From the IMG/VR virus record IMGVR_UViG_643348547_000007: DNA of 29,004 bases. The stretch is one strand, 5' to 3'. A program made the position numbers and the translations under genes. Below the pieces are notes generated by a model. It was not told the origin of the DNA. It searched no databases and saw nothing but the letters and a program-made list of their open reading frames with translations. Shown here in pieces: positions 12,347 to 29,004 of the stretch (its first letter is position 1; each line of letters begins with the position of its first letter). This DNA comes from a virus (Duplodnaviria > Heunggongvirae > Uroviricota > Caudoviricetes).

Positions 12347-12352
12347 TTCGCT

Positions 12353-12450: not shown

Positions 12451-12456
12451 TTCTTT

Positions 12457-13778: not shown

Positions 13779-13783
13779 TGGAT

Positions 13784-14811: not shown

Positions 14812-17369
14812 CGACCGCTCCCTGATAACAGACCGCCATCACGCAACTGCAGCCGGAGTTCATCCTGTGCCCCCTTGCGGGCCATGTCATACACCGCCTT
14901 CATCAGCTGCGACCCCGCCTGTCCGTTGATACCGTCGTTCTGAATCACCACGTGATTGTTCTGATTAAAATTAATACCTTCGGCCCGCCGCATCTGCGCC
15001 GGACTTCCGGCACCGCCGACATAACCACCTTCCGCATACCCGCGCATCAGACGATACAGGTTGCCGACACCAATCCGGCTGGTTGCCTCCTTCGTGAAGA
15101 CAAATTCACCACGGTGAACAATCCCCGCTGGCTCATATTTGCCGCCGGTTCCCGTAAATCCTCCGGTTGCAAAATGGAATTTCGCCGCAGCGGCCTGAAT
15201 GGCTGTACCGCCTGACGCGGATGCGCCGCCACCGGTAGCCCCGCCAATGGCGCTGCCGATACTCCCGACAATCCCCACCATTGCCTGCTTAAGCAGAATT
15301 TCTGTCATCATGGACAGCACGGAGCGGGTGAAGCTGCGCCAGTTCTGCTCACTGCCGGTCAGCATCGCCGCCATATTCTGCGCAATACCATCAAAGGTCT
15401 GCGTGGCAGCACTTTTAACCTGCGACATACTGTCCGTGGCACTCTCTTTCCACTCGCTCCAGCCGGACCTGAGGCCTGCCATCCAGTTCCCGCGAAGCAG
15501 GTCTTCAGCCGCCCAGGTCTTTTTCTGCTCTGACATGACATTATTCAGCGCCAGAGGATTATCGCCATACTGTTCCTTCAGGCGCTGTTCTGTGGCTTCC
15601 CGTTCTGCCTGCCGGTCAGTCAGCCCCCGGCTTTTCGCATCAATGGCGGCCCGTTTTGCCCGTTGCTGCTGTGCGAATTTATCCGCCTGCTGCGCCAGCG
15701 CGTTCAGGCGCTCCTGATACGTAACCTTGTCGCCAAGTGCAGCCAGCTGGCGTTTGTACTCCAGCGTCTCATCTTTATGCGCCAGCAGGGATTTCTCCTG
15801 TGCAGACAGCTGGCGACGTTGCGCCGCCTCCTCCAGTACCGCGAACTGACTCTCCGCCTTCCACAAATCCCGGCGCTGCTGGCTGATTTTCTCATTCGCT
15901 CCGGCATGCTTCTCCAGCGTCCGGAGTTCTGCCTGAAGCGTCAGCAGGGCAGCATGAGCACTGTCTTCCTGACGATCGCCCGCAGACACCTTCACGCCGG
16001 ACTGTTTCGGCTTTTTCAGCGTCGCTTCATAATCCTTTTTCGCCGCCGCCATCAGCGTGTTGTAATCCGCCTGCAGGATTTTCCCGTCTTTCAGTGCCTT
16101 GTTCAGTTCTTCCTGACGGGCGGTATATTTCTCCAGCGGCGTCTGCAGCCGTTCGTAAGCCTTCTGCGCCTCTTCGGTATATTTCAGCCGTGACGCTTCG
16201 GTATCGCTCTGCTGCTGCGCATTTTTGTCCTGTTGAGTCTGCTGCTCAGCCTTCTTTCGGGCGGCTTCAAGCGCAAGACGGGCCTTTTCACGATCATCCC
16301 AGTAACGCGCCCGCGCTTCATCGTTAACAAAATAATCATCCTTGCGCAGATTCCAGATGTCGTCTGCTTTCTTAAACGCAGCCTCTGCCTTAATCAGCAT
16401 CTCCTGCGCGGTATCAGGACGACCAATATCCAGCACCGCATCCCACATGGATTTGAATGCCCGCGCTGTCCTGTCTGCCCAGGTCTCCAGCGTGCCCATG
16501 TTCTCTTTCAGGCGGCGGGTCTGGTCATCAAACCCTTTCGTTGCGGCCTCGTTCGCCGCCTGCAATGCCCCGGTTTCATCGCCGGAACGCTGCAACTGAG
16601 CAACATACGCAATCTGCTCCGCCGTCACGTTATGGAACTGCTTCGCCATCGCAATCAGCCCCGACGTCGGGTCAGTGGTCAGTTTTCCGAAAGCCTCTGC
16701 AACCTTGTCCACCTCCACACCGGATGCAGAAGCAAAACGCGCGACACTCTGGTTGATGGCATCAAACTGTTCACCACCACGCACACCGGCATTCACCATG
16801 GCTGCCAGTGACTCACTCGCCTGGTTAAACGTCAGCCCTGCGGCCTGTCCGGCTCTGGAGAGCGTCAGCATGCGATCGGCAGTCAGTCCGGACTGATTAC
16901 CGGAAAGAACCAGGGTTTTATTAAACGCTGAAAGCGTGGAATCTCCCTGGTACCAGGCGTACACCAGCGCACCTGTCGCCACCGCCAGCGAGGTGACCCC
17001 GACCATCGGCAGGGTGATCGCACCGGCAAGCCCCCTGAACATGGGGATCATCCCGCCGAAGGAGTCCTTCACCTGACCGCCCTGTTGCAGCAGGATCAGC
17101 CAGGGATTCTGACCACCGGCAAGCTGCGTGGCGATATCCGTAAACTGTGCGGGCAGGGTTCGCATGGCCGCTTTATACTGCCCGACGGAAATCCCGGCTT
17201 TTTGTGCAGCCAGCGCCTGGCGGCTCAGGCCCTGTTCAACAGCACTGGCGGTTTTTCTGGCGTCGGTATCCAGACCTGAAAAATGACGCCTTACCCGGCT
17301 CATCTGCTCATCGAAACGGACAGCATCCAGACTAAGGTCAATAACAAGATCACCAACCGGCTGGGACAT
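14808..17369 (-). CDS. H: Tail tape measure protein H, 853 aa
   Basis: Same length as lambda gpH as I recall it; coiled-coil-rich centre and glycine-rich C-terminal region; position between T and M. Confidence 0.95.
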   Translation of the reverse strand: MSQPVGDLVIDLSLDAVRFDEQMSRVRRHFSGLDTDARKTASAVEQGLSRQALAAQKAGISVGQYKAAMRTLPAQFTDIATQLAGGQNPWLILLQQGGQVKDSFGGMIPMFRGLAGAITLPMVGVTSLAVATGALVYAWYQGDSTLSAFNKTLVLSGNQSGLTADRMLTLSRAGQAAGLTFNQASESLAAMVNAGVRGGEQFDAINQSVARFASASGVEVDKVAEAFGKLTTDPTSGLIAMAKQFHNVTAEQIAYVAQLQRSGDETGALQAANEAATKGFDDQTRRLKENMGTLETWADRTARAFKSMWDAVLDIGRPDTAQEMLIKAEAAFKKADDIWNLRKDDYFVNDEARARYWDDREKARLALEAARKKAEQQTQQDKNAQQQSDTEASRLKYTEEAQKAYERLQTPLEKYTARQEELNKALKDGKILQADYNTLMAAAKKDYEATLKKPKQSGVKVSAGDRQEDSAHAALLTLQAELRTLEKHAGANEKISQQRRDLWKAESQFAVLEEAAQRRQLSAQEKSLLAHKDETLEYKRQLAALGDKVTYQERLNALAQQADKFAQQQRAKRAAIDAKSRGLTDRQAEREATEQRLKEQYGDNPLALNNVMSEQKKTWAAEDLLRGNWMAGLRSGWSEWKESATDSMSQVKSAATQTFDGIAQNMAAMLTGSEQNWRSFTRSVLSMMTEILLKQAMVGIVGSIGSAIGGATGGGASASGGTAIQAAAAKFHFATGGFTGTGGKYEPAGIVHRGEFVFTKEATSRIGVGNLYRLMRGYAEGGYVGGAGSPAQMRRAEGINFNQNNHVVIQNDGINGQAGSQLMKAVYDMARKGAQDELRLQLRDGGLLSGSGR

Positions 17370-17763
17370 ATCTCACACCTCCCGGAATCCCCGCTGAAGC
17401 CATCATTAATGCGGCATCATCCACCATGACATCCGCCACATCCACAGACGATAAAATATCGCGCCCTCCGTCCCCACCGAACCGGACGCCTCCGGCAAGT
17501 CCTGCCGCTTTCTGCATCAGCATTTTGTCCTCATCCGGCCTCTCCACCTGCTCTTCCTCATGCCGGGGGACAAGCAGACTGAAATCAGAGGGATGCATAT
17601 CCGGATCGCAAAAAAACAGGCTGAGTACAGCGTACGTCAGCCCGGAAAAATGCATATCCAGCTGGGTATCCTGAAAATAATGCGTGCGGTAAAAACGGTG
17701 CCAGTCGGCATATTCGGTGGATGTCATCCCGGCAAGCATGGCGCGCCAGTCGGGTCTCCCCAT
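17350..17763 (-). CDS. T: T portion of the G-T tail assembly chaperone, expressed by a -1 frameshift from G
   Basis: The frame continues from the G slippery site in the -1 register (GKVFDGELNFALRLAREMGRPDWRAM...), giving the G-T fusion spanning 17350-18221. Confidence 0.85.
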   Translation of the reverse strand: MGRPDWRAMLAGMTSTEYADWHRFYRTHYFQDTQLDMHFSGLTYAVLSLFFCDPDMHPSDFSLLVPRHEEEQVERPDEDKMLMQKAAGLAGGVRFGGDGGRDILSSVDVADVMVDDAALMMASAGIPGGVRYVPAGW

Positions 17764-17789
17764 CTCACGCGCCAGTCTGAGGGCAAAGT

Positions 17790-18221
17790 TCAGCTCGCCG
17801 TCGAAGACTTTCCCGCAGAAAAATCATCATCAGTCAGCGTGTTATTTTTCGCCACTTCAGTAATATCAGTATCCGGACGAACAGCTTCGATCATCCCGGA
17901 CAGGCACAACACCACGTCTTCCGCCCGGGCAATGGCATCGGCAGGCCAGGTGGTGAGCACTTCCTGCTCTATCTTCATCACGGCCTCATTCATTGACGGT
18001 GACTGCGTTTTCTGTGGATGGTTATGCCACAGGGACATCGCCACCAGAAACGCGCCGGTTCTGACAAGATCTTCCACACTCACCTGCAGGTTGCCGCTGG
18101 CTTCAGCCTCTTCTGCCCGCCGTTTCAGGAGGGCAAGATGCTCAATACGCTGCAGCGCAGACAGCTCAGAAAGCGTGACGGATACACCGTTATATTCAAA
18201 TTGTTCTGTTTTCAGGAACAT
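17790..18221 (-). CDS. G: Tail assembly chaperone G, 143 aa
   Basis: MFLKTEQFEYNGVSVTLSELSALQRIEHLAL... matches lambda gpG from memory. Confidence 0.9.
   Translation of the reverse strand: MFLKTEQFEYNGVSVTLSELSALQRIEHLALLKRRAEEAEASGNLQVSVEDLVRTGAFLVAMSLWHNHPQKTQSPSMNEAVMKIEQEVLTTWPADAIARAEDVVLCLSGMIEAVRPDTDITEVAKNNTLTDDDFSAGKSSTAS
17808..17814 (-). other. Programmed -1 ribosomal frameshift slippery heptamer G GGA AAG at the 3' end of G
   Basis: Minus-strand GGGAAAG lies 5 codons before the G stop, the same heptamer and placement as lambda G-T as recalled; the downstream -1 frame is open into T. Confidence 0.8.
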
Positions 18222-18239
18222 CGCTTATCTCTCAGCTCT

Positions 18240-18986
18240 TTAGCCACCCGGCACATTATTAACGGTAATTTCAGCCACCGCAGCAAACTGACCATTACCG
18301 GAAATCACAGGGATGCTGACTTTTCCATCCTTAACCCCCGTCACAGTAATCGTCATATCTTTCACGCTAATGGTGGCTTTTGATGGATCGGCGGAAATCG
18401 CCCTGAATGTCTTATCCGTTGCATTTTCCGGTTCCACAGTAACGGTCAGGGTGGTTGTTTTCCCTTTTTCAACCGTACCTGTCGGCGTTACCTTAATCGC
18501 AGTGACCGGCGTAATTTTGCTGCGTTCTTCCGCTACAGAAGGTTTACCCACGTTAGTGACTTTCACCGTGCGGGTGATCACTTCTTTCGCCGTCACGGCC
18601 TTACCGATACTGCTGACCCAGCCACGAAACACATCCACCGTGCCATTCGGAAAACGGATTTTATAGGCCCGGACATCGCCGCTTTCAAACCAGCCTATAA
18701 GCCCTTTCTGGCCTTCCTCTCCCGGTTTCCAGGCTAGCGTAAAACTGGTATCACCTGCAGATTTCTGCCCCTGCCCGGTCGCGCTCCAGTCCGCGTCTTC
18801 ATCATCCAGGTAGTTATCATCGTAGGATTCAGCCGTCATCTCGCCCGGCGTCAGATCCTTCACCTTAGCCAGTCGCTGCCAGTCATCGTCTGACAACGGG
18901 TTTGCATAAGCATCAGCCTTGCCGTTGTAAACCCACAGAGTGGTACCGGCACCTTTTACCGGCTCCAGGGGATTTGGTGTTGCCAT
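18240..18986 (-). CDS. V: Major tail tube protein V (with C-terminal Ig-like domain), 248 aa
   Basis: Lambda gpV-like ([10 protein letters not shown]..., [40 protein letters not shown]). Confidence 0.95.
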
Positions 18987-18993
18987 ATCGTCC

Positions 18994-19389
18994 TCACATC
19001 TCGTATGTAATGGAATAAGTCAGATCTGCAGAACTCCATAACGCCATATCGTCATCACGACGATACTCATAGCCCTGCGTAACCATCGTGGTAATCAGTC
19101 CTGCCAGTGCCGGGATCGCAGTCATCGCCGGGTAAATCCGGCTTTCCATCCACTGATCAAGCTCTGAATCCGGTACCTGTGCCGGTAAAAACACCTCAAT
19201 ATGCAGCGTGGCCCGCCAGGTATCTGCATCCAGCTCTTCACCGGTATACTCTGCATCCGTCAGATAAACCGCGATCGCAGGAAAATCCTCTTCGTCAAAA
19301 ACAACGGGGCGACCATCAAACAGCGTCGCCCCGTGTTCATGCTGCTCGAGTGCATCCAGCACTGCGGCACGAATGTCAGTGTGTTTCAT
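18994..19389 (-). CDS. U: Tail terminator protein U, 131 aa
   Basis: Lambda gpU-like; same length as I recall for lambda; stop/start overlap with Z. Confidence 0.95.
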
Positions 19390-19919
19390 CGTTTTATCGC
19401 AATCCTCAGTTGTTGTTTCAGCGCGTATGCCAGTTCTTTAGGCAGGCGTTCACGCCGGATACGGTCAATATTCTCATCAAATGCCTGTTTCAGTGGGGCC
19501 GCCATCGGGATTTTCACCACATCAATAGGGTAACGGTTTTTCCCGGCCACACGCTGCATGACATGCCAGCGACCGTTTTTTAATCGCTGAATGAATGCCC
19601 GCTGATACCGATGCTGACCGGCTTTAAGTATGCTGTTCGGACGACGGCCCAGCATCCTGATCCCCAGCTTAATCACTGGAAGATCACCGCGGTTAACGAT
19701 AATTTTTGCGTTCGGATTTCTGACCGTCGCCCGTTTCAGTCTGGACCGTTCCTTTACCAGTTTCCGGCGTACCTTTGTCTCCCGGGCAACCTGTGATGAA
19801 GACTGATTAATCGCCGTTGTGGCCACGCGGTTAATGGCCATTGCTGAAGCCGCCGGAATGGCGTTTTTACGAACCCGGCTCAGATTATCAATCGCCTGAT
19901 CAAGCCCTTTTATCGCCAT
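19386..19919 (-). CDS. Z: Tail completion protein Z, 177 aa
   Basis: Lambda gpZ-like, basic protein between FII and U. Confidence 0.9.
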   Translation of the reverse strand: MAIKGLDQAIDNLSRVRKNAIPAASAMAINRVATTAINQSSSQVARETKVRRKLVKERSRLKRATVRNPNAKIIVNRGDLPVIKLGIRMLGRRPNSILKAGQHRYQRAFIQRLKNGRWHVMQRVAGKNRYPIDVVKIPMAAPLKQAFDENIDRIRRERLPKELAYALKQQLRIAIKR

Positions 19920-19934
19920 AATTTCACCCTGCGT

Positions 19935-20288
19935 TTATCGTCGCCGGTTAACAGCGGGTGGTTGCCCACGGTTGAGCCAGAGATAACAGCTTCCCCCGTC
20001 ATCCGGAGAAACACGATCCACCCAGAACATCTCGCCGTTAATGGTCAGCGTGTCACCACGCCGCACGGCACGCACCGTATCCGTCCGCACAAATAATGAC
20101 GGGCTGCTTCCTTCAATACGGACCCCGCCACCGGCAAAACCCAGCGACTCCGGATCGTCAAAAACCCCCTGAACTTCGCCGCCACGTTGTGCTCCGGAGG
20201 TGAACTGCGCACGGATCCCCATCACTTCAACAATCGTGCTGTCCACCCCGGCAAGGGCAGCATCAAAGGCATTCTGAAAATCACGCAT
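19935..20288 (-). CDS. FII: Head-tail joining protein FII, 117 aa
   Basis: Lambda gpFII-like (GSSPSLFVRTD...VDRVSPDDGGSC.LWL.RG.PPAVNRRR). Confidence 0.9.
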   Translation of the reverse strand: MRDFQNAFDAALAGVDSTIVEVMGIRAQFTSGAQRGGEVQGVFDDPESLGFAGGGVRIEGSSPSLFVRTDTVRAVRRGDTLTINGEMFWVDRVSPDDGGSCYLWLNRGQPPAVNRRR

Positions 20289-20664
20289 GCTCAGCCGTTC
20301 CGTGCTGTATCATGGCTGTCGCCAGTGGTGATGGCACCATAACACGCATGCCCCGGTACGTCAGTTCAACGGGACGGCCTGTCTCCGGGCAATACCCCAT
20401 CACATGCAGGCATTTCCGCACACGGACCGCTTTAACATCATCCGTAGCATCAGTGTTGTGCAACTGCTCACCATCGTCTGTGTGATTTTGATCAGCCCCG
20501 CTCTCATCAGAGTGCATAATGCCCTCCGGGGAAACAGCAAGCTCCTCTTCCCACTCAGACACACGTTGAGCAATATCCGCAGCACTCCCCGACATATCCG
20601 CCTCGCGCCCCAGCAGGCCAGCCAGTTGACGAAGACGATTCAGATTTTCTTCTTTTGTTGCCAT
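20281..20664 (-). CDS. FI: DNA-packaging / head completion protein FI-like, about 127 aa from ATG 20664
   Basis: Sits between E and FII as in lambda; acidic central region; start chosen at the ATG preceded by AGGAGG rather than the track's upstream start at 20712. Confidence 0.7.
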   Translation of the reverse strand: MATKEENLNRLRQLAGLLGREADMSGSAADIAQRVSEWEEELAVSPEGIMHSDESGADQNHTDDGEQLHNTDATDDVKAVRVRKCLHVMGYCPETGRPVELTYRGMRVMVPSPLATAMIQHGTAEHA

Positions 20665-20715
20665 CTCAGCCTCCTGTGAAAAAAGACACGGGGGCATTTC
20701 GCCCCCGCTCACGGA

Positions 20716-21744
20716 TTATTTCACCTGTACCACCACAAACTCATCCGGATCCGGCAGCACCATCAGCGGTGCGGACTGCGTCATGGTGAATTCACGGGCC
20801 GGATCGCCCACAGTCAGCCAGTGTTTCGGATAACGGGAAGAGGCCACCACACCTTCGGACAACGCCTGCGCATCCTGAATGGCACCATAGCAACGAATGC
20901 CCTCTGCTGCCGTATTCCCCAGGACCAGTGTGCCCTCCGGCAGATAACGTTTTTCGGTACCGTCCTCTGCCACATAAGACGTTTTCGCCACCACAATGGC
21001 CAGATCGCCGTAATACCCCTTGAAGGACACCACCGCCCCCAGGTCTTTCACTGCCGTTTCGAGTTGTGAATTTGAGCCGCGACGGGTATCCAGTTTTTCG
21101 CGGAACAGCTTAAAGCCATTCAGCAGACGCCAGACCGTACCGTCCATAATGGCGATATTCACAAGGCCGCTGGCCTGATCGCAGTAGAGGTCAATATCAT
21201 GCGTCGGATCAAACGTATCACGGTCCTGCTCAGACCATTTTTTACCGTCAGCCTGCTCAATGTTATTTCCTTCAGAGCGCCCGAAATCCACCTCGACAGT
21301 ATCAAACTGATCCCCTTCCATGGTGTATTTGCCATACAGCACGGCATTCACCGCCTGCATTTCTTCCACCTGGACAATGGCGTGCTCTTCCTGTTTGAGG
21401 TTATCGGTAATGATACGCAGACGACGGTAGGCCGGGTCGTTCAGCTGAGCCGGATCTTCACCAGGAAGGCGCTCAACCGCCTGCTGGTAATTAAATTCGT
21501 GTTTGGGCTTGACGTAGCCCGGACGTAACACGCGGGTTTCACCACCGCGATGGCGAAGCACTTTTCCTTCAACGATCGGGGAGACATAGGCCGCCACCGG
21601 CGTTTTTCCGGTAATTTTGTCCAGCATCACCTCTTCGGTGTGGAAATTCACCGTACGGCGGAAAAACAGCTCCAGAAACAGCGCACGGAATTTCACTTTT
21701 TGTTCGGTATAACCGAGTAACTGGCGGGTCGTAAACAATCCCAT
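20716..21744 (-). CDS. E: Major capsid protein E, 342 aa
   Basis: Collinear with lambda gpE (KLDTRRGSNS.LETAVKDLG..., GDPAREFTM.QSAPLM.L.DPDEFV). Confidence 0.95.
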   Translation of the reverse strand: MGLFTTRQLLGYTEQKVKFRALFLELFFRRTVNFHTEEVMLDKITGKTPVAAYVSPIVEGKVLRHRGGETRVLRPGYVKPKHEFNYQQAVERLPGEDPAQLNDPAYRRLRIITDNLKQEEHAIVQVEEMQAVNAVLYGKYTMEGDQFDTVEVDFGRSEGNNIEQADGKKWSEQDRDTFDPTHDIDLYCDQASGLVNIAIMDGTVWRLLNGFKLFREKLDTRRGSNSQLETAVKDLGAVVSFKGYYGDLAIVVAKTSYVAEDGTEKRYLPEGTLVLGNTAAEGIRCYGAIQDAQALSEGVVASSRYPKHWLTVGDPAREFTMTQSAPLMVLPDPDEFVVVQVK

Positions 21745-21801
21745 AAATCAGTTCCTTTCATTAAGAAATCAGTCAGGCCAACGCGGTGGCCTGATAACGT
21801 G

Positions 21802-22149
21802 TTACGGCAGCGCCGCGTGACTCAGGGCACTGCCGGTAAAGGCGTTGGCCTTTTTGTGTTCATCCACACTTTCAGGCCAGCGGATTGCCTCCGTCGCAAA
21901 GGTCCCCGACTTGTAATACGTCAGCACCGCCTCTGTGCCTTCAAGCGGCAGTACCAGTATGCCAACCGCACTACCGGCTTTCTGTCCGTCCCAGACCACC
22001 AGTTTCCCGGTGGCCCCATCCAGCATCAGGGGTGTCAGTGCCGGTGTTGCCGAGGAAATCCCGCTGCTGCCTGTGGCGGTGTGAGCCGGATCATTACCGG
22101 CAAAAATACGTACTTCCGCACGCTGTTCAGTGATGGTTTTCGTTACCAT
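21802..22149 (-). CDS. D: Capsid decoration protein D, 115 aa
   Basis: Lambda gpD-like (DPAHTAT...TPLMLD...YKSGTF). Confidence 0.9.
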   Translation of the reverse strand: MVTKTITEQRAEVRIFAGNDPAHTATGSSGISSATPALTPLMLDGATGKLVVWDGQKAGSAVGILVLPLEGTEAVLTYYKSGTFATEAIRWPESVDEHKKANAFTGSALSHAALP

Positions 22150-22185
22150 ATTGTAAAAACCTCATATTGATGGTCAGCACTGACT

Positions 22186-23691
22186 TCATGGCATGGCCAT
22201 GAGCATTTTCACGTCCGCATCACCGTCTGCTGACGTCTGTGACACGCCACCCCGCACCGCTGCCGGTGAATGATTCGCCATGAAATGTTCAAACAGGGCG
22301 GTTGTGGATGCAGAGACCGGTTCTGCCTTACCTGATCCCGCAGCCAGCACAGCCCGGGCGCTCTCCACAGTCATTCCCGGGCAGGCAGCCAGCTGTTCAG
22401 CCTGCGCCTCAGCCCCTTTTGCCTCATCCAGTGCCATGATCTGATCACGAAGTGAGGGCCCGGCATCCGCCAGTGGTGCAGCCGCAAGGATCGGGCGGGC
22501 TTTTTCCACCGTCATCTCCGGCATCGCCGCCAGCGTTGCCGCCAGTTGTTCACGACCTTTAGCCTCTTCACACGCCATAATGCGATCGGCTTCACTCTGT
22601 GCGGATGCCACCGGCTGCTGCGGTGCCGCCGCGGCCAGAATCGCCCGGGCCTGTTCAACGCTCATGCCCTGTTGCCCTGCCAGCATCGTGGCAAGCTGTT
22701 CACGTCCTTTCGCTTCCTGGCATGTCAGGATCCCCATCACTCGCTGGTTCTCCTGCACGGCGGCTTCCGTTGCAGTTAATTGCGGCATAGTGCCTCCTCT
22801 GACATTACTGTTCAGCGCCGCAGCCATCACGCTGATGGCATCCGACGCATTGATTAATTCATCCGCCAGCCCGGCCTCAATGCCGGACTGACCTTCAAAA
22901 ACGGCGGCCTCTGTTCCCGTGACTGCATCAACAGACAGACCGGTATACATCGCCACTTTTTCGGCAAACATCCGGTGCGCCGCATCAACCCGCTGCTGCA
23001 TGTCCTGACGCACCTCTGCCGGTAAGGCTTCAAACTGATTGCCATCCACCTTGTGCGCCCCGGCATAAATCAGCGTGATATCCACCCCGGCCTGCGCCAG
23101 ATGACCGGCATAGCTGACATGGCTCATCATCACGCCAATGGAGCCGATACGGGATGTCTGGGTAACCAGCCGTCGGGAGCAGGCCGACGCCAGCAGCATG
23201 GCTGCAGAACAGGCCGTGTCATTGCACAGTGCCCAGACCGGCTTCTGCTGACGGAGGCGGTAAATCATGTCAGCGCAGTCAAACGCGCCGGCGGCCTGCC
23301 CGCCCGGACTGTCAATGTCCAGCAGTACGCCCCGCACCTGGCTATCTGCCATTGCCTGCTGAAGACAGGCGACAATGCCGTCATAGCCTGTCATTCCGGA
23401 AAATGGCCGCATACCGCCCAGCCGGTGCACCAGCGTGCCGGTCACCGGCAGTACAGCAATACCGTTCACCACCCGGTAAACACGGGCCGGTCGTTTACCT
23501 CCGGCCATGTACTCGTCCGTTTCAGCCAGCATTCCGGGAGCATCAAGCTGTACCTGTTGTTGTGGTACCGAAAGACTTGCTGCCCCCATCTCGCGCCCGA
23601 GCGCGCAAAAGAAAACCCGCGCATAGGCGGGCTCCAGAAGCAGCGGTTCATTGAATGCTGCGGCAATAATGTGTGAAAGATTACGTCTCAC
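22186..23691 (-). CDS. C: Head maturation protease C (S49/ClpP-like) with nested scaffold (Nu3-like) C-terminal region, 501 aa
   Basis: S49 peptidase-like N-terminal two-thirds (GGQAAGAFDCADMI, SACS motif); the C-terminal region carries repeats related to the lambda Nu3 segment (RIMGIL.C.EA.GRE...). Confidence 0.9.
   Translation of the reverse strand: MRRNLSHIIAAAFNEPLLLEPAYARVFFCALGREMGAASLSVPQQQVQLDAPGMLAETDEYMAGGKRPARVYRVVNGIAVLPVTGTLVHRLGGMRPFSGMTGYDGIVACLQQAMADSQVRGVLLDIDSPGGQAAGAFDCADMIYRLRQQKPVWALCNDTACSAAMLLASACSRRLVTQTSRIGSIGVMMSHVSYAGHLAQAGVDITLIYAGAHKVDGNQFEALPAEVRQDMQQRVDAAHRMFAEKVAMYTGLSVDAVTGTEAAVFEGQSGIEAGLADELINASDAISVMAAALNSNVRGGTMPQLTATEAAVQENQRVMGILTCQEAKGREQLATMLAGQQGMSVEQARAILAAAAPQQPVASAQSEADRIMACEEAKGREQLAATLAAMPEMTVEKARPILAAAPLADAGPSLRDQIMALDEAKGAEAQAEQLAACPGMTVESARAVLAAGSGKAEPVSASTTALFEHFMANHSPAAVRGGVSQTSADGDADVKMLMAMP
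22327..22740 (-). repeat. Three diverged tandem copies of a roughly 40-codon module in the C/Nu3 scaffold region
   Basis: Protein repeats MGILTCQEAKGREQLATMLAGQQGMSVEQARAILAAAAP / IMACEEAKGREQLAATLAAMPEMTVEKARPILAAAPL / IMALDEAKGAEAQAEQLAACPGMTVESARAVLAAGSG. Coordinates are computed from residue positions and are approximate. Confidence 0.5.
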
Positions 23692-25273
23692 GTGGTGTTG
23701 TCTCCTCTTCCGGCCTGCGACTCTCCGCTATCTGCTGCTGATACGCCTGCGCTATCCACACCGGGCGTGAGAGTCCGGCTTTTTCCCGCTCTGCAGATTC
23801 CCTGACCTGCTGGCGGAAAATGTCCTGATAATCCTCGCCCATCAGCGCCAGCTCTTTCTCATACGTGCTCAGTCCGGCCTCAATGCGCATCACTGATTCC
23901 TGGACTTCCTTGAGCCCGTCAATGGCCATTCTTCCGGCACCAATCCACTCTGCCCGTGACCAGGCTGATCGCGCCTGATAAAAATCAAAACGTGCCCGTG
24001 GCGGACGAATAATCCCCCGAAGAAGTGCCTCTTCCAGCCAGCAGGAAAACATCTGCGTGGCCAGTCGGGCCGCAATAAATTTTCGCCGCCCCATAAAATA
24101 GCGCCACGACTCATTGGCGGAGGCGCGGGCACTTGAGTAACTGACCTTCGAGTAATCACGGGACAACTGTTCGTAGGAAACGCCAAGACCGGCGGCGATA
24201 TACCGCAGCAGCGCCTGTTCAAGCGCCGAAAATCCATTGTCTGAATCCTGCGCTGTCTGCAGTTTCAGATCATCACCAGGGAAAAGGTGCGGAATTTTGA
24301 CACCGCCCAGCGTCACGTTATTCGTGTCATACCAGCTGGAGAACTTCTCCAGAATATTAATAAGCGGATTATCCTTCTGCCCCTGCGGCGCACCGGCGAT
24401 ATATTCAAAGGCCTTTTCGGTATCCAGTTCACTTTCAATCGTCGCTGCATACATCGCCTTCACTATGGCCGACTGAAGCTGTGTTGCCTGCAGGGAATCG
24501 AGCATCTTCAGCCGTTCCATGACGCTGTAAAACTGATTGGCCCCACGGGTCTGCCCGTCCTCCACCGGCTCGAAAATATGCAGCATGGCCGGACGCCCGG
24601 TGGGTAGTTCACGCGGGATCCGTTCCCATCGTCCACTCCCGGAGCGAGGAAAATCATCCTCACAGATATGGTACGCAACGGCACGGCCATATCGATCAAC
24701 CTCCACACCGGCCCGCAGAAAACGGTTCCCGATACCGCGTCCTGGCGTGTCCACCCGTTTCGGACTCACGGCTTTAAAACGCGTACGGAATAACTGCGTG
24801 GTTTCCGTATCCCAGACCGGCTGCACAAAGATTTCGCCGTTAAACGCATGAACGCCCACACCTTCACGGATAAATTCCGTAAACGTGCGTTTCCCTTCCA
24901 CGTCGATCTCACCAAACATCCCTTCTGCGTATTCTGACCAGGCCGCCTCCACCTCATCGACAAAACTTTTTGCCGCGGTCTCCCGCATCCCCAGCCAGCG
25001 CCAGTTCGGACGGTAGCTAATCAGAAACATATGCCCGACAATGTGATCCTTATGCAGGGCCACCGCATTGGCCGCTATTCCGTTATTGCGCACCAGATCA
25101 TCTGCACGGGCATTCCCCAGACGCAACGCGGGCAGCAGGGCCGCATCGGCACTCTGCGAGGGTGGCAACCACTCTGCCATTTGCCCGCCAAATCCTGCAC
25201 CGCCACCGTTGTAGCTGAGGCTCTCCCGAAGCGGAACGCCGTTCACATCAATCAGGACAGGCGTTCGTTTCAT
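23681..25273 (-). CDS. B: Portal protein B, 530 aa
   Basis: Lambda gpB-like along its length; position between W and C. Confidence 0.95.
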   Translation of the reverse strand: MKRTPVLIDVNGVPLRESLSYNGGGAGFGGQMAEWLPPSQSADAALLPALRLGNARADDLVRNNGIAANAVALHKDHIVGHMFLISYRPNWRWLGMRETAAKSFVDEVEAAWSEYAEGMFGEIDVEGKRTFTEFIREGVGVHAFNGEIFVQPVWDTETTQLFRTRFKAVSPKRVDTPGRGIGNRFLRAGVEVDRYGRAVAYHICEDDFPRSGSGRWERIPRELPTGRPAMLHIFEPVEDGQTRGANQFYSVMERLKMLDSLQATQLQSAIVKAMYAATIESELDTEKAFEYIAGAPQGQKDNPLINILEKFSSWYDTNNVTLGGVKIPHLFPGDDLKLQTAQDSDNGFSALEQALLRYIAAGLGVSYEQLSRDYSKVSYSSARASANESWRYFMGRRKFIAARLATQMFSCWLEEALLRGIIRPPRARFDFYQARSAWSRAEWIGAGRMAIDGLKEVQESVMRIEAGLSTYEKELALMGEDYQDIFRQQVRESAEREKAGLSRPVWIAQAYQQQIAESRRPEEETTPRET

Positions 25274-25476
25274 AACCTCACTCCCAGCGGACGACGGCGA
25301 CGGCGGGTTGTCCCCAGTACCGACTCCGCATCATTGATCGCCCGGTTAAGCTCATCCAGAGAAGCTGCCGTATATTCAATTCTGCGACCATCTTTCTGGA
25401 CAGACACCACCCGTTTACCGGTTAATAAATCAAGGCGCGCCTGACGCAGCGCCTGCAGTTCAGCGACTGTAACCAT
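25270..25476 (-). CDS. W: Head-tail connector protein W, 68 aa
   Basis: Same length as lambda gpW as I recall it; start overlaps the A stop region. Confidence 0.9.
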   Translation of the reverse strand: MVTVAELQALRQARLDLLTGKRVVSVQKDGRRIEYTAASLDELNRAINDAESVLGTTRRRRRPLGVRL

Positions 25477-27388
25477 TCACTCCTCCGGACAGCTTCGCTG
25501 CCAGTTCTTTAAGGGTTGGCCGGGTCGTCTCTTCTTCCCGGGATTTTGCCAGTACAGCCAGATCAAGCTGCCAGCGTTGCACGGACACACGTAATGCCGC
25601 GTAGGCATACACCAGGCAGTCCAGCGCTTCGTTACGCCGCTTTTTGTTATCCCACAGCAGACGCATCTTTCCTTTTTCCCACTTCTCCACAAGCTCTTCC
25701 GCCACCAGTTGCTGCGCCTCTGTCTGCGAAAAAATCTCCGGATCATCAGGAAAACGGATGGCATACGACGTGGCTTCATCCGCAGGCGTGGGATCGGCTT
25801 TCATACGGGCATAGAGAATTTCTTTTGCGGTGTCCGTCCCCACTTCGCACAGATACACGCCCCGCTGATTGCGGGTTTTTGGCATGGTGATCACCGGCTT
25901 GCCATAAACAGATGCACCTTTTACCGGCAGCACCCGGAAAACACCGTGTTTTTTTGACCTCTGATAGACAATTTCGCCATCGATCCCCCCGGTGTCCCAG
26001 CAGACACGGGAAATGGTCATTTCGGTTCCGTCTGCATGGCGGTATTTTTTGTTGATCGCCACATCCACACGTAACAGCGTCTCTTCCTCATCGGGACGCC
26101 CCATAATGATGATTTTATCCACCAGAAAGGCTTCCTCTCCCGGAGCCCATCCCCAGACATACATCTCAAAACGGTTTCGCTGCGAGTCAATGCCCGCCGT
26201 CAGATAAACCACCCGGGCTGGCACCGCCGCCGTGTAATGCACGACCTTATCCATCAGTACCTGGTGATCGAGTTTTTCGCCCACGGCCTCTTCCCAGGTC
26301 TCGCCCAGCGTGGTGTTCACAAAGGTTTTCAGGCCGTTGGGATCTTTCAGTGCATCCAGCCAGTCATAGACTATCTGTACCCAGGTGGTGAACGGACTGT
26401 ACGCCGTCCAGATATGGAACGTGATGGAGCGCGGCGGCGGAATTTCATTATCCGCGGCGCTGAAAAACGTCAGACCGTCACGGGTCCACATCCCCGTGTT
26501 TTCACAGATCCACCGCCCGTTGCTCTGGTCAAGCTCAGACTGATGGATCACGCAGCCATGATGTTCACAGAGGTAGAAAACGCTTTCGGGGCTGTCCTTC
26601 TCCCATTTAAGGCCAAAAGGCGTGGACTCATCGCCAAATTTCAGATACTGCGCCTCCCCACAGTGCGGGCAGGGCACATAAAAACGCATGAAATGCGCCG
26701 ACTCGTTGGCCGCTTTTTCGATCTGGCAGGAGCCTTTTATTTTAGGCGTCGAGCCGCGAATGGATTTTGGCCATACCGAGCCCTCAATACGCTTATCCCC
26801 CAGCAGGGTTGGCGAGCCCTCTTTTTCGACATCCGGCTCGAACGAGGAAAGTTCGTCATAGCAGACCACGTCCACGGATTTTTCACGGTAGTTTTTGGCG
26901 GCAGCGCCGCCCAGGCACCAGAAGCCCACACCCGATGAAAAGCGTTTCAGCGTGATGGTATTATCACGATGTTTACGTCCCAGCCAGGGAGAAAGTTTTT
27001 TCAGGCAGGGAACATCGCGAATCGTCGCCTCCACGTGAGACTTCATAAAATCTTCAGCGGCAGAATCCGTGGGCTGAAAAAGCAGACTGTTTCGGGATTT
27101 ATGCTCAATAAAATACCCGGCGACTCCCAGCAACATCTTTGTATAGCCAACACGGGCAGATTTAATCAGATTAACAGTCCGGATCTGATCATTCCCCATG
27201 CTGTTCATGATGGCGATCTGGAACGGCAGCGTTTTCCATTCTCCCTCACCATATGAAGATTCTTTAGGCAGATAATAATTTTGATCAGCCCATTCAACTG
27301 GCGTCACCGGCAATGCCCTTATCAGGGGCTGTAATGCTGTTGTGACAGCACTCATCATATTATTCAGTTGTTGCTCTGATATATTCAT
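25460..27388 (-). CDS. A: Terminase large subunit A, 642 aa from ATG 27388
   Basis: Collinear with lambda gpA (VEWADQNYYLPKES, Walker A-like region, C-terminal nuclease part). Start set at MNISEQQ, matching lambda's MNIS start, rather than the track's upstream start at 27445. Confidence 0.95.
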   Translation of the reverse strand: MNISEQQLNNMMSAVTTALQPLIRALPVTPVEWADQNYYLPKESSYGEGEWKTLPFQIAIMNSMGNDQIRTVNLIKSARVGYTKMLLGVAGYFIEHKSRNSLLFQPTDSAAEDFMKSHVEATIRDVPCLKKLSPWLGRKHRDNTITLKRFSSGVGFWCLGGAAAKNYREKSVDVVCYDELSSFEPDVEKEGSPTLLGDKRIEGSVWPKSIRGSTPKIKGSCQIEKAANESAHFMRFYVPCPHCGEAQYLKFGDESTPFGLKWEKDSPESVFYLCEHHGCVIHQSELDQSNGRWICENTGMWTRDGLTFFSAADNEIPPPRSITFHIWTAYSPFTTWVQIVYDWLDALKDPNGLKTFVNTTLGETWEEAVGEKLDHQVLMDKVVHYTAAVPARVVYLTAGIDSQRNRFEMYVWGWAPGEEAFLVDKIIIMGRPDEEETLLRVDVAINKKYRHADGTEMTISRVCWDTGGIDGEIVYQRSKKHGVFRVLPVKGASVYGKPVITMPKTRNQRGVYLCEVGTDTAKEILYARMKADPTPADEATSYAIRFPDDPEIFSQTEAQQLVAEELVEKWEKGKMRLLWDNKKRRNEALDCLVYAYAALRVSVQRWQLDLAVLAKSREEETTRPTLKELAAKLSGGVNGYSR

Positions 27389-27869
27389 CGAGTAAATCCG
27401 GTAATTTATCCCCCGCCCGCGCACACTGATTTGCCCCCTTCGCAATAAGGGTTTTCAGATGGTCAAGATGGCGCGGTGTTAAATCAGGAAACTGTCGCTG
27501 CATGGATAAAGGGATGGAATCAAGCGTACTGGATAACGCCATTGCCAGCTTGCTGAGGGCAAAAATACAGAACCCGGTGTCAATAAGTTTTCCTTTTGAC
27601 ACCTCATTTTTTAACTGCTGTGTAACAGCCTGTTCTGCTGTCAGTTCCCATCTGGCAATAAGCAATTTCTCCTCATAGTCGTCTTCGCTATCGCCATCAG
27701 GCACATCGTTTTTACTTCTTCTCAGATACGATATGTAAAAATCGCGCCAGGCATCCAGATCCAGTTGCCCTCGCTTATTCGATATCGGGGCACCCGGCAA
27801 TTTCTGCAATCTGCGAAGCTGGCGATCGGTCAGACTTAAATGCCTGGCAACTTCAGTCTGCGTAGCCAC
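27360..27869 (-). CDS. nu1: Terminase small subunit (Nu1-type) with N-terminal HTH; GTG start
   Basis: C-terminal two-thirds resemble lambda Nu1; the N-terminal DNA-binding region differs from lambda; GTG at 27867-27869 with GAGG upstream; 3' end overlaps A. Confidence 0.8.
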   Translation of the reverse strand: MATQTEVARHLSLTDRQLRRLQKLPGAPISNKRGQLDLDAWRDFYISYLRRSKNDVPDGDSEDDYEEKLLIARWELTAEQAVTQQLKNEVSKGKLIDTGFCIFALSKLAMALSSTLDSIPLSMQRQFPDLTPRHLDHLKTLIAKGANQCARAGDKLPDLLDEYIRATTE

Positions 27870-27917
27870 TCCTCACCTCGCAAAAAACTCTCACCTCACA
27901 ATCACAACAAAACCGGT

Positions 27918-28017
27918 CATGTCCGGTTTTAGTGTCTATTTTTTGCGCATGTCCGGTTCATGGAAAGCATGTTTTTATATTTTTCATATGGTTAACTTGC
28001 AGAGAAACCGGACATGG
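27918..28017. promoter_or_regulatory. Candidate cosB: three copies of the 11-bp motif CATGTCCGGTT (two direct at 27918 and 27948, one inverted at 28007) separated by an AT-rich stretch
   Basis: Motifs read directly from the sequence; the location between cosN and the small terminase gene matches the layout of terminase-binding R sites and an IHF bend site in lambda cosB. Confidence 0.45.
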
Positions 28018-28053
28018 ATCCCGGAAAATTTTCATAAATAGTGAAAATCCGCG

Positions 28054-28065
28054 AGGTCGCCGCCC
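28054..28065 (-). other. cosN cohesive-end site (minus-strand GGGCGGCGACCT, identical to the lambda 12-nt cohesive end)
   Basis: Exact 12-mer; flanking sequence on the Nu1 side (CGCGGATTTTCACTATTTATGAAAATTTTCCGG) is near-identical to the start of the lambda genome as recalled. Confidence 0.85.
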
Positions 28066-28144
28066 CGTAACCGGTCGGATCGCCGGAAAGGACCCACGAA
28101 AATGATAATGATTATCATCTATATAAGGTTTATCACAACATGTG
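28066..28144 (-). other. Phage right-end segment (cosQ-containing, about 79 bp) retained between cosN and IS629
   Basis: Sequence closely resembles the last roughly 80 bp of the lambda genome as recalled (GATAATGATTATCATC core); abuts the IS629 inverted repeat at 28145. Confidence 0.55.
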
Positions 28145-28198
28145 TGAACCGCCCCGGGAATCCTGGAGACTAAACTTCCTGAGAAAGAGGTAAACAGG

Positions 28199-28525
28199 AT
28201 GACTAAAAATACTCGTTTTTCCCCCGAAGTCCGTCAACGGGCAGTCCGTATGGTTCTGGAAAGTCAGAGCGAATATGACTCACAATGGGCGACAATTTGT
28301 TCCATTGCTCCAAAGATTGGCTGTACGCCGGAGACTCTGCGTGTCTGGGTTCGCCAGCATGAGCGGGATACCGGGGGCGGTGATGGAGGGCTCACCACCG
28401 CTGAACGTCAGCGTCTGAAAGAGCTGGAACGTGAAAATCGTGAACTGCGCCGCAGTAACGATATCCTTCGCCAGGCTTCCGCTTATTTTGCGAAGGCGGA
28501 GTTCGACCGCCTCTGGAAAAAATGA
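28199..28525 (+). CDS. IS629 OrfA (second copy), 108 aa
   Basis: Translation identical to the copy at 3909-4235. Confidence 0.9.
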
Positions 28526-28939
28526 TGCCACTGCTGGATAAGCTGCGTGAGCAGTACGGGGTCGGACCGCTATGCAGCGAACTGCATATTGCCCCGTCAA
28601 CGTATTACCACTGTCAGCAACAGCGACATCATCCGGATAAACGCAGTGCCCGTGCGCAGCGCGATGACTGGCTGAAGAAAGAGATACAGCGCGTATACGA
28701 TGAAAATCACAAGGTATACGGTGTGCGTAAAGTCTGGCGTCAGTTGTTACGGGAAGGTATCAGAGTGGCCAGATGCACTGTGGCACGTCTCATGGCGGTT
28801 ATGGGACTTGCCGGTGTTCTCCGGGGTAAAAAGGTCCGTACGACCATCAGCCGGAAAGCCGTTGCCGCAGGCGACCGCGTAAACCGTCAGTTCGTGGCAG
28901 AACGACCTGACCAGCTGTGGGTGGCTGATTTTACTTACG
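28522..28939 (+). pseudogene. IS629 OrfB, 3'-truncated or interrupted after about 139 codons
   Basis: Identical to copy 1 OrfB up to ...QLWVADFTY, then unrelated sequence (GVPGVQGGHGCLNEPRVCLEY) to the window end. Confidence 0.8.
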
Positions 28940-29004
28940 GTGTGCCCGGAGTTCAGGGCGGGCATGGATGCTTAAATGAACCGCGAGTCTGTCTGGAATA
29001 TTGA

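What the first reader, a model, noticed from the sequence alone, without database searches (positions are those of the whole stretch)
27870..28144. Intact cos site retained in a prophage remnant that has lost its lysis and regulatory region
cosN is a perfect GGGCGGCGACCT, the cosQ-side right-end sequence is present, and the adjacent terminase genes Nu1 and A are full length. The remnant therefore keeps a potentially functional packaging origin and terminase plus a full set of head and tail genes, although its own induction machinery is not in the window. Such remnants can be packaged or complemented by helper phages, and can donate structural modules by recombination.
Basis: partly seen in the sequence, partly recalled or inferred. 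Interest (0 to 1): 0.5.

Follow-up and report, generated by a model that had tools for sequence, protein, structure and literature searches.

The report
Intact cos site in stranded prophage half
This is a real, undamaged lambda-family DNA-packaging (cos) site at the head of the late-gene half of a prophage in E. coli IAI39 that an insertion sequence has cut off from its lysis and control genes; this kind of defective prophage is well known, so the finding is correct but ordinary.

Summary
cosN (GGGCGGCGACCT) is exact at 28054-28065 on the minus strand. The cosQ heptamer GGGTCCT sits at the lambda spacing (28089-28095). All 20 genes from Nu1 to J are full length and uninterrupted.

The window is E. 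coli IAI39 (CU928164.2, 100% identity). Close relatives (CE10, AR_0013, AF57) keep lysis, Q, replication, immunity and int beyond the IS629 that starts 79 bp from cosN. In IAI39 the far side of that IS629, which is itself split by a group II intron, joins host DNA (dadX, dadA, ycgB, fadR). So the "remnant" reading is right, although the window alone cannot show it.

One correction: cosB and the small terminase are not lambda-type. cosB carries three CATGTCCGGTT repeats at bp 50, 108 and 138. The TerS N-terminal domain is unrelated in sequence to gpNu1. Both match the deposited PhiR12 phages (TerS 100%, cosB 97%), and this cos class occurs in 1,132 of 5,426 complete E. coli genomes. Lambda terminase would probably not initiate here.

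With no late promoter, one cos and no downstream termination site, the module is most likely silent. It could act only in trans or as recombination stock. Known kind; low interest.

The parts
28089..28095 (-). [quoted passage not shown]
   Evidence: Same sequence and spacing as lambda (coordinates). All 7 positions are invariant in 41 distinct cos sequences of this class, while the DNA upstream of it is only 9% invariant.
28054..28065 (-). cosN, the 12-nt cohesive-end sequence GGGCGGCGACCT (bp 1-12), flanked by CG on both sides
   Evidence: Exact single match. Aligned to the annotated cos of phage DE3/lambda. 12/12 invariant in the class.
28017..28053 (-). cosN-proximal segment (I2 region, bp 13-49)
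   Evidence: Identical to lambda through bp 45 except at bp 18 and bp 24. 89% of positions are invariant in the class. I2 is needed for packaging termination in lambda (PMC4669245).
28005..28016 (-). R3-position TerS-binding repeat CATGTCCGGTTT (bp 50-61, direct orientation)
   Evidence: Repeat family found. It occupies the position of lambda R3 (bp 50-65, PMC9026076). 12/12 invariant in the class.
27959..28004 (-). R3-R2 spacer (bp 62-107), AT-rich; candidate IHF-bend region equivalent to lambda I1
   Evidence: 74% invariant in the class. No match to WATCAANNNNTTR at <=1 mismatch falls here, so the IHF site is inferred by position only.
27948..27958 (-). R2 repeat AACCGGACATG (bp 108-118, inverted relative to R3)
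   Evidence: The 11-mer is nearly invariant while the bases immediately flanking it vary.
27910..27929 (-). R1 region: inverted repeat AAACCGGACATG (bp 137-148), overlapping a degenerate direct copy CATGACCGGTTT (bp 145-156). Together they form a palindrome.
   Evidence: The inverted copy is the conserved one (9/12 invariant, against 2/8 for the degenerate part). Also flagged as a terminator-like hairpin.
27360..27869 (-). Small terminase subunit (TerS, 169 aa; GTG start at bp 197, preceded by GAGG)
   Evidence: Pfam Phage_Nu1 matches aa 49-150 only. 46% identical to lambda Nu1 over aa 73-164 only. 100% identical to PhiR12_1 TerS. PHROG terminase small subunit.
25460..27388 (-). Large terminase subunit gpA (642 aa)
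   Evidence: Full GpA_ATPase and GpA_nuclease domains. 99.4% identical and full length against PhiR12_1.
8313..25476 (-). Head and tail morphogenesis genes W, B, C/Nu3, D, E, FI, FII, Z, U, V, G, T, H, M, L, K, I, J
   Evidence: Every gene is full length with no stops against PhiR12_1, at 76-100% aa identity; the J C-terminus diverges. Pfam portal, S49 protease and capsid E domains.
28066..28144 (-). 79-bp stub of the phage right end between cosN and IS629 (contains cosQ)
   Evidence: In IS-free relatives the sequence continues without loss. The reconstructed empty site is 3 bp longer than the uninterrupted relatives, which indicates a target duplication.
28145..28939 (+). IS629 (IS3 family), 5' 795 bp: left inverted repeat, orfA, ALIL frameshift pseudoknot, start of orfB. 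This is the element that severs the module from the rest of the prophage.
   Evidence: 100% identical to positions 1-795 of CE10's intact 1,310-bp IS629. Pfam HTH_Tnp_1 and HTH_21. Rfam ALIL at 28480-28596. RefSeq annotation 'IS3-like element IS629 family transposase'.
28940..29004 (+). 5' end of a group II intron inserted in IS629 orfB (continues beyond the window)
   Evidence: The same junction in AR_0013/AF57 carries the ltrA reverse transcriptase/maturase and an Rfam Intron_gpII match. In the source, RVT_1/GIIM genes follow.

Best explanation
This is a genuine lambda-family cohesive-end site with all known subsites intact. cosQ is the termination signal, cosN is the nicking site, I2 is the proximal segment, and cosB is a three-repeat site for the small terminase subunit. 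It sits directly upstream of its cognate terminase genes.

It belongs to a non-lambda cosB/TerS class with CATGTCCGGTT repeats and a divergent N-terminal DNA-binding domain. The conserved C-terminal half of TerS is the part that, in lambda, binds TerL. This class is common in E. coli prophages and is also found in the deposited PhiR12 phages.

By analogy with lambda (inferred, not shown here), the mechanism would be as follows. TerS dimers bind R3 and R2 across a bend in the AT-rich spacer. That positions gpA to nick cosN 12 bp apart. DNA is then packaged in the direction Nu1 to J, which is towards lower window coordinates.

In E. coli IAI39 this cos heads a stranded late-gene module. IS629 lies 79 bp from cosN and has served as a recombination joint to host DNA next to dadX. 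As a result the module is separated from pR'/Q, the lysis genes, replication, immunity and int/xis. Its other end has been exchanged with the Qin-site (ydfJ) prophage end.

The module is therefore structurally competent but most likely transcriptionally silent and unable to excise. Its intactness reflects how recent the rearrangement is, not selection for function. It could act only in trans, or as a source of modules for recombination.
For: Shown here:
- Subsite anatomy and spacing.
- Purifying pattern across 41 distinct sequences of the class: cosQ 7/7, cosN 12/12 and R3 12/12 invariant, R2 and R1 nearly invariant, while upstream DNA (9% invariant) and the spacers vary.
- Co-variation of the TerS N-terminus with the cosB repeats across four classes that share cosQ-cosN. 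The lambda specificity positions Q20/E24 are R/K here (roles from PMC4669245).
- TerS identical, and cosB 97% identical, to the deposited phages PhiR12_1 to PhiR12_5.
- All of Nu1 to J intact.
- The class is present in 1,132 of 5,426 complete genomes.
- Source identity and the host junction beyond IS629.
- Relatives carry a second, same-orientation IS629 at the dadX-LRR position.
- gpA and TerS are sequence-identical to those of complete prophages in relatives, which argues for a recent event.
- No significant promoter signal upstream of TerS.
- No second cosN downstream.

Against: - No experiment here shows cleavage or TerS binding.
- The IHF site between R3 and R2 has no consensus match at <=1 mismatch.
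- The conserved R1 copy is inverted relative to R3, unlike the lambda/21/Monarch pattern. The architecture is therefore not a perfect copy of the studied model.
- The winged-helix fold of the TerS N-terminus is only suggested. The best matches are MerR-like wHTH proteins and the 6hn7 TerS/Rpp entry, none with E <= 0.001.
- Silence of the module is inferred from the missing promoter context, not measured. dadA-dadX are transcribed towards the module, so read-through cannot be excluded.
- Whether the early half of the prophage, or a helper of the same class, exists elsewhere in IAI39 was not testable.
Confidence: 0.8

Rival explanations
1. The stranded module is biologically active in trans. A co-resident or superinfecting lambdoid phage of the same TerS/cosB class supplies terminase and late functions, cuts this cos in situ, and packages or transduces the adjacent DNA (Nu1 to J, ydfJ and beyond). 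Alternatively its structural proteins complement other defective prophages.
For: cos and all structural genes are intact. This cos class is very common, so matching helpers are plentiful. Defective O157 Sakai prophages are packaged with help from others; Sp4 is packaged although its nu1 is disrupted, probably by the terminase of Sp14, whose cos is nearly identical (PMC2669165). Termination by lambda-like terminases does not depend on cosB class (PMC4669245).
Against: Q acts in cis at its own late promoter, so a helper would not switch on these genes (own knowledge of lambda late control). The module cannot excise or replicate as concatemers. There is only one cos, and no second cosQ-cosN (<=1 mismatch) in the window, in the held source flanks, or in the 20 kb syntenic flank, about 48 kb downstream in all. 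Lambda-type packaging needs a downstream cos to terminate and complete heads (PMC4669245). No co-resident helper was demonstrated.
Confidence: 0.13
2. The cos site is inactivated by the IS629 insertion 79 bp from cosN, because sequences upstream of cosQ are needed for cos function.
For: Only 79 bp of the right-end sequence remain contiguous with cosN.
Against: All defined lambda cos subsites lie within about 200 bp, and cosQ is the outermost on this side (PMC4669245). cosQ is intact at -29 to -23. DNA upstream of -30 is the least conserved part among 41 relatives, at 9% invariant, and differs completely in PhiR12_1. The IS629 is a simple insertion with a 3-bp duplication and no loss of phage DNA.
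Confidence: 0.04
3. The prophage is complete and 'lost lysis and regulatory region' is only a window-edge artefact.
For: In CE10, AR_0013, AF57, NMBU_W05E18 and 2017C-4173W12 the same cos-IS629 junction is followed by ylcI, Rz, R, S, Q, replication, immunity and int.
Against: The window is 100% identical to IAI39 CU928164.2. There the IS629 right end joins an LRR-gene fragment, dadX, dadA, ycgB and fadR. The flank sequence is CTGTATACACTG..., not the phage flank CTGTGTACGCCATC....
Confidence: 0.02

Closest known systems
Bacteriophage lambda cos (cosQ-cosN-I2-cosB with R3-I1-R2-R1) and terminase gpNu1/gpA
   Same: Identical 12-nt cosN. Identical cosQ heptamer at the same spacing. The proximal segment is nearly identical (2 differences to bp 45). 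R3 sits at bp 50-61 and the TerS start at bp 197, against 191 in lambda. gpA has the same two-domain architecture. [quoted passage not shown]
   Different: The cosB repeats are CATGTCCGGTT rather than lambda's CGTTTCC(N)TTCT type. The TerS N-terminal DNA-binding domain shows no detectable sequence match, and lambda's specificity residues Q20/E24 are R/K here. The conserved R1 copy is inverted relative to R3. No IHF consensus was found.
Escherichia phages PhiR12_1 to PhiR12_5 (GenBank PV340549-PV340554; hosts given as MG1655 or E. coli C)
   Same: TerS 100% identical. The cosN-to-TerS interval is identical except for one T in a T-run. gpA is 99.4% identical. The order of head and tail genes is the same.
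   Different: Those records are complete phage genomes, with lysis genes directly upstream of cos and with int, cI, cro, O, P and Q. Here the upstream side is IS629 joined to host DNA. The sequence upstream of cosQ, the J C-terminus and V differ.
Phage 21 and N15/Monarch cosB specificity groups (Feiss laboratory)
   Same: The principle is the same: a shared cosQ-cosN-I2 core, with a class-specific triplet of R repeats paired with a class-specific TerS recognition domain. Examples of a 21-like class and an N15/Monarch-like class were found next to the same core (L094, L010/L011).
   Different: The repeat sequences differ: GGTTGTTGTT in the N15/Monarch-like class and CAGATCC(G/T)TTCT in the 21-like class. 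Both of those classes have R1 direct. The packaging specificity of the present class has not, to my knowledge, been tested experimentally.
Defective lambdoid prophages of E. coli O157 Sakai (Sp4/Sp14 and others; Asadulghani et al. 2009, PMC2669165), and K-12 cryptic prophages Qin and DLP12 with nohA/nohD
   Same: These are prophages crippled by IS insertions and deletions that keep cos and morphogenesis genes, and that can be packaged or recombined with help from co-resident prophages. This cos class is present in O157:H7 EDL933. The window's left end is the Qin integration site, ydfJ.
   Different: In Sakai the packaged defective prophages could still excise and replicate. Here the late module is physically severed from int/xis, replication and the late promoter, and is flanked by host DNA on both sides.
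cos sites of phage-inducible chromosomal islands (EcCICFT073-type PICIs; PMC9026076)
   Same: Both have a lambda-like cosQ and cosN with a non-lambda cosB region.
   Different: PICI cos sites lack repeated R sequences and are followed by rpp, not by terminase genes (PMC9026076). Here there are three R repeats and a full TerS/TerL/head/tail set.

Membership tests
Lambda-like cos site (12-nt 5' cohesive ends) | 12-nt cohesive-end sequence matching lambda's, especially the left half, with conserved CG dinucleotides at both nick positions | tested here: met
   Exact GGGCGGCGACCT at 28054-28065 in the context ACG|GGGCGGCGACCT|CG. The criterion comes from PMC4669245.
Lambda-like cos site (12-nt 5' cohesive ends) | cosQ heptamer GGGTCCT about 23-29 bp upstream of cosN | tested here: met
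   28089-28095, the same spacing as lambda. Invariant in 41 relatives.
Lambda-like cos site (12-nt 5' cohesive ends) | Conserved cosN-proximal segment (I2) between cosN and R3 | tested here: met
   Two differences from lambda between bp 13 and bp 45. 89% invariant in the class.
Lambda-like cos site (12-nt 5' cohesive ends) | Complex cosB: three related R sequences, with R3 near bp 50-65 and R2 inverted relative to R3 and R1 | tested here: inconclusive
   Three exact CATGTCCGG cores lie at bp 50 (direct), 108 (inverted) and 138 (inverted). The position of R3 and the orientation of R2 fit. The conserved R1 is inverted, and only a degenerate direct copy overlaps it.
Lambda-like cos site (12-nt 5' cohesive ends) | IHF binding site (I1) between R3 and R2 | tested here: inconclusive
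   The spacer is AT-rich and conserved (74% invariant), but no WATCAANNNNTTR match at <=1 mismatch falls in it.
Lambda-like cos site (12-nt 5' cohesive ends) | Small and large terminase genes immediately downstream, with TerS starting about 190 bp from cosN | tested here: met
   TerS GTG at bp 197, and gpA overlaps its end.
Lambda-like cos site (12-nt 5' cohesive ends) | Staggered nicking by terminase and use as a packaging start and stop | not testable with these tools
   Needs in vitro cleavage or in vivo packaging assays.
Lambda packaging-specificity group (cosB-lambda / gpNu1) | R sequences of the lambda type (R3 = AGGCGTTTCCGTTCTT, with T at bp 56 and C at bp 58) | tested here: not met
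   The alignment diverges from lambda from bp 46 onward. The repeats here are CATGTCCGGTT.
Lambda packaging-specificity group (cosB-lambda / gpNu1) | TerS N-terminal winged-helix domain homologous to gpNu1, with recognition residues Q20 and E24 | tested here: not met
   Pfam Phage_Nu1 covers profile positions 62-163 only. BLASTP to lambda Nu1 covers aa 73-164 only. No PDB sequence hit. The aligned positions are R and K. The fold is still compatible with a MerR-like wHTH, but not significantly so.
Defective (stranded) lambdoid prophage remnant | Late morphogenesis genes present, but lysis, late-promoter/Q, replication, immunity and int/xis absent from the contiguous element | tested here: met
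   In the source genome, host genes (LRR fragment, dadX, dadA, ycgB, fadR) follow the IS629::intron. ydfJ and ydfI flank the other end. Whether the early half survives elsewhere in IAI39 was not tested.

The most novel reading that the evidence does not exclude
The CATGTCCGGTT cosB, paired with the 'MATQTEVARHL...' TerS DNA-binding domain, may be a fourth, experimentally uncharacterised packaging-specificity group of lambda-like cos phages, alongside lambda, 21 and N15/Monarch. It would have a variant architecture in which R1 is inverted and forms a palindrome. Because it occurs in about a fifth of complete E. coli genomes, including O157:H7, it would partition the E. coli prophage pool into packaging-compatibility groups. 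Stranded modules like this one could then be initiated on only by helpers of the same class. The universally shared cosQ-cosN-I2 core would act both as a class-independent termination signal and as a hotspot for module exchange. An example of such exchange is L094, where the same cosQ-side sequence and IS629 remnant are joined to a 21-like cosB/TerS.
Probability: 0.5. Interest if true: 0.3.

Novelty: already known. Interest (0 to 1): 0.15.

Why it matters
The finding matters little by itself. Intact cos sites in IS-damaged lambdoid prophages, and their possible mobilisation or recombination within a prophage pool, are established (PMC2669165).

Three practical points are useful:
- This cos is not lambda-specific at cosB, so any experimental test must use a terminase or helper of the matching class.
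- The locus shows clearly how IS629 recombination can strand a complete packaging and morphogenesis module between host genes.
- The cosB/TerS class is very common in pathogenic E. coli and appears not to have been characterised functionally. It would be a reasonable target for anyone mapping which prophages can package which.

Tried and rejected
(1) Window-edge artefact, a provisional conclusion that I rejected. CE10, AR_0013 and AF57 carry the complete prophage beyond the same IS629, so I first read 'lost lysis/regulatory region' as an artefact of the window edge. Exact-protein look-ups found the true source, IAI39, and overturned this. The source is not in the 'E. coli genomes' collection, so BLAST alone was misleading.

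(2) IHF consensus search: no match at <=1 mismatch in cosB, and window-wide matches were no more than chance.

(4) Literature. I found no paper describing the PhiR12 phages. The Virology 2015 N15 paper (PMC4461450) is not held. I therefore could not read printed phage 21 R-site sequences and call L094 only '21-like'.

(5) Genome-contig scan for TerS relatives: only 4 loci. It was still useful, because two were N15/Monarch-like.

(6) Simple single-crossover origin of the lom/J hybrid from CE10-like parents. The mismatch pattern is mosaic, not a clean switch.

(7) Simple deletion between the two direct IS629 copies. I consider it implausible because the interval in CE10 contains pth, prs, ispE, lolB, hemA, prfA and kdsA. 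That these genes are essential is from my own knowledge of K-12.

(8) Promoter scan upstream of TerS: one weak match, not above the shuffled expectation.

Full report
OBSERVATION

The 12-nt lambda cohesive-end sequence GGGCGGCGACCT occurs once in the window. It is exact and lies on the minus strand at 28054-28065. About 0.0035 exact matches are expected by chance.

Read on the minus strand, the region aligns base for base with the annotated cos of lambda/DE3:
- The cosQ heptamer GGGTCCT lies at 28089-28095, with exactly the lambda spacing from cosN.
- The CG dinucleotides at both nick positions are present.
- The cosN-proximal segment is identical to lambda up to bp 45, except at bp 18 and bp 24.

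A 105-bp stretch is about 91% identical to lambda-type phages.

They run from the base next to the TerS start codon to the base next to the left inverted repeat of an IS629 element.

The genes on the minus strand are the lambda late genes in lambda order. All 20 genes from Nu1 to J align end to end, without stops, with the proteins of the deposited phage PhiR12_1.

WHAT KIND OF COS IT IS

From bp 46 onward the sequence stops resembling lambda. It carries three copies of CATGTCCGGTT:
- bp 50-61, direct, at the position of lambda R3 (bp 50-65, PMC9026076);
- bp 108-118, inverted;
- bp 137-148, inverted, overlapping a degenerate direct copy at bp 145-156.

The TerS start is at bp 197, against 191 in lambda.

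The small terminase subunit matches lambda Nu1 and Pfam Phage_Nu1 only in its C-terminal part. Among 50,697 phage records, only the five PhiR12 phages share it over its full length. Lambda, 434, N15, Gifsy-1 and the others match only from about residue 57-73 onward.

I collected 80 viral-contig loci that encode this TerS. They gave 41 distinct cos sequences, 68-97% identical to the window. Across them, cosQ (7/7), cosN (12/12) and R3 (12/12) are invariant. R2 and the inverted R1 are almost invariant. The DNA upstream of cosQ (9% invariant), the cosQ-cosN spacer and the R2-R1 spacer vary freely. That is the pattern expected for functional subsites.

Loci whose TerS has a different N-terminus carry different triplicated repeats on the same cosQ-cosN core. 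L010 and L011 have GGTTGTTGTT, which is N15/Monarch-like. L094 has CAGATCC(G/T)TTCT together with a 21-like TerS.

In an alignment of the four TerS N-termini the helix-turn-helix region is alignable. The two lambda residues known to set specificity, Q20 and E24 (PMC4669245), are R and K here. L010's TerS has a different N-terminal domain but a nearly identical C-terminal half. This shows that the DNA-binding domain and cosB are exchanged as a unit.

A structure prediction gives a confident small N-terminal domain: strand, two helices, a loop, then a long helix. Its best structural matches are MerR-like winged-helix proteins and the TerS/Rpp entry 6hn7, but none is statistically significant.

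This cos class is common. It occurs in 1,132 of 5,426 complete E. coli genomes, including O157:H7 EDL933.

CONTEXT, AND A REVERSAL

IS629 begins 79 bp from cosN, at 28145. It is 100% identical to the first 795 bp of CE10's intact IS629, and it is then interrupted at 28940 by a group II intron.

In the closest complete genomes the same junction is followed by ylcI, Rz, lysozyme, holin, tRNAs, Q, replication genes, the immunity region, xis and int next to ompW. These genomes are CE10, N32, AR_0013, AF57 and others; 15 records share the exact junction. On that basis I first judged the 'remnant' claim to be a window-edge artefact.

No genome in that collection contains the window contiguously, however. 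An exact look-up of the window's J protein found one record only, CU928164.2. An exact look-up of gpA returned the same record with 10 kb of flank. The window is 100% identical to it.

In IAI39 the far end of the IS629::intron does not join phage DNA. It joins a leucine-rich-repeat gene fragment followed by dadX, dadA, ycgB and fadR. The relatives carry a second IS629 at exactly that dadX-LRR position, in the same orientation and about 100 kb away. The IAI39 junction therefore looks like the product of recombination between the two IS629 copies.

The interval between those copies in CE10 contains pth, prs, ispE, lolB, hemA, prfA and kdsA, which are essential in K-12 (own knowledge). A plain deletion is therefore implausible. 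The block has more likely been relocated, possibly with the early half of the prophage attached. I could not test this.

At the other end, the window from about 7656-9005 downward is collinear with the Qin-site (ydfJ) prophage of CE10 rather than with the ompW-site prophage. The module is thus flanked by host DNA from two different loci and has neither of its original attachment junctions in a matching pair.

HOW IT MOST LIKELY WORKS

The following is by analogy with lambda and is inferred. TerS dimers bind R3 and R2 across a bend in the conserved AT-rich spacer. That positions gpA to nick cosN, and DNA is translocated in the direction Nu1 to J. cosQ, cosN and I2 serve as the termination signal for a packaging run arriving from upstream (PMC4669245, PMC9026076).

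In IAI39 the module lacks several things. The late promoter and Q lie upstream of the lysis genes in relatives and are not next to this module in IAI39. There is no significant promoter signal between IS629 and TerS. The module cannot excise or replicate.

It also has no second cosN within the window, the held source flanks, or the 20 kb syntenic flank beyond ydfJ. An in-situ packaging run would therefore have nowhere to terminate.

The most likely state is a silent, recently stranded module. Its sequence is intact because little time has passed: its TerS and gpA are identical to those of complete prophages in relatives. Trans-activation by a helper of the same class remains possible but is unproven. 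Recombinational donation of modules is the better-supported role, because mosaic joints are visible both at cos (L094) and in lom/J.

COMPARISON AND NOVELTY

The site meets the defining features of a lambda-like cos: cosN, cosQ, I2, R3 position, inverted R2, and adjacent terminase genes. It fails the features of the lambda specificity group, namely the R sequence and the gpNu1-type recognition domain. It differs from the studied complex cosBs in the orientation of the conserved R1.

Stranded or defective lambdoid prophages with intact cos are well documented (PMC2669165). The finding is correct, already known in kind, and of low interest.

The least ordinary reading still open concerns the cosB/TerS pair. 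It may be a distinct, widespread and functionally uncharacterised packaging-specificity group.

Noticed in passing
window 28940-29004 (continues in L104 and L001:21641-23910): The IS629 next to cos is itself interrupted, after its base 795, by a group II intron. The intron has an ltrA-type reverse transcriptase/maturase and an Rfam Intron_gpII match in AR_0013. The same IS629::intron is present in AR_0013, AF57 and IAI39, but not in CE10 or N32.
   Followed up: partly
window 2980-4289 (minus strand): A second, complete IS629 copy is inserted in a pin-type recombinase gene at the Qin-like end of the element. Relative to CE10, the window lacks 864 bp immediately next to this IS: part of the recombinase, a tail-fibre-assembly fragment, a small ORF, and the 3' end of a tail-fibre-domain gene. 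This looks like an IS-adjacent deletion.
   Followed up: partly
window about 7656-9005 (lom and the 3' end of J): This is a hybrid joint. Below it the window is collinear with the ydfJ/Qin-site prophage of CE10, and above it with CE10's ompW-site prophage. In CE10 the two prophages are inverted relative to each other and lie about 325 kb apart. The mismatch pattern is mosaic rather than a single clean crossover.
   Followed up: partly
L104:1-5664 (IAI39, beyond the window) and L106 (CE10 1372500-1422499): The IS629 right end in IAI39 abuts an LRR-gene fragment next to dadX. Relatives have a second IS629 there in the same orientation. The roughly 100-kb interval between the copies contains pth, prs, ispE, lolB, hemA, prfA and kdsA, so IAI39 must carry that block elsewhere. 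dadA-dadX are transcribed towards the stranded terminase module.
   Followed up: partly
L094 (E. coli 2017C-4173W12, 4176961-4195060): The same cosQ-side sequence and the same IS629 junction (here an internally deleted IS remnant) are joined to a different, 21-like TerS and cosB (CAGATCC(G/T)TTCT repeats). This suggests that the conserved cosQ-cosN-I2 core acts as a crossover point between packaging modules.
   Followed up: partly
L010 and L011 (Escherichia albertii; Escherichia sp. MOD1-EC7003): The TerS has an N15/Monarch-like N-terminal domain and GGTTGTTGTT repeats (direct, inverted, direct), but a C-terminal half nearly identical to the window's TerS. This is a clear example of the DNA-binding domain and cosB being swapped as one unit.
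   Followed up: partly
window 27908-27931: The R1 region forms a 9-bp-stem palindrome (AAAACCGG ACATGA CCGGTTTT). The consensus scan flags it as terminator-like on both strands. It lies about 40 bp upstream of the TerS start.
   Followed up: no
window 28480-28596: An Rfam ALIL pseudoknot (120 bits), the programmed-frameshift element of IS3-family transposases, is intact in the truncated IS629.
   Followed up: no
L001/L002/L005 (AR_0013, CE10, AF57 relatives): In the relatives that keep the whole prophage, the Rz-type 'lysis protein' is annotated as frameshifted, and in CE10 the exonuclease gene is too. In NMBU_W05E18 and 2017C-4173W12 the lysis protein is intact. Decay had therefore begun in this lineage's prophage before the IAI39 rearrangement.
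   Followed up: no
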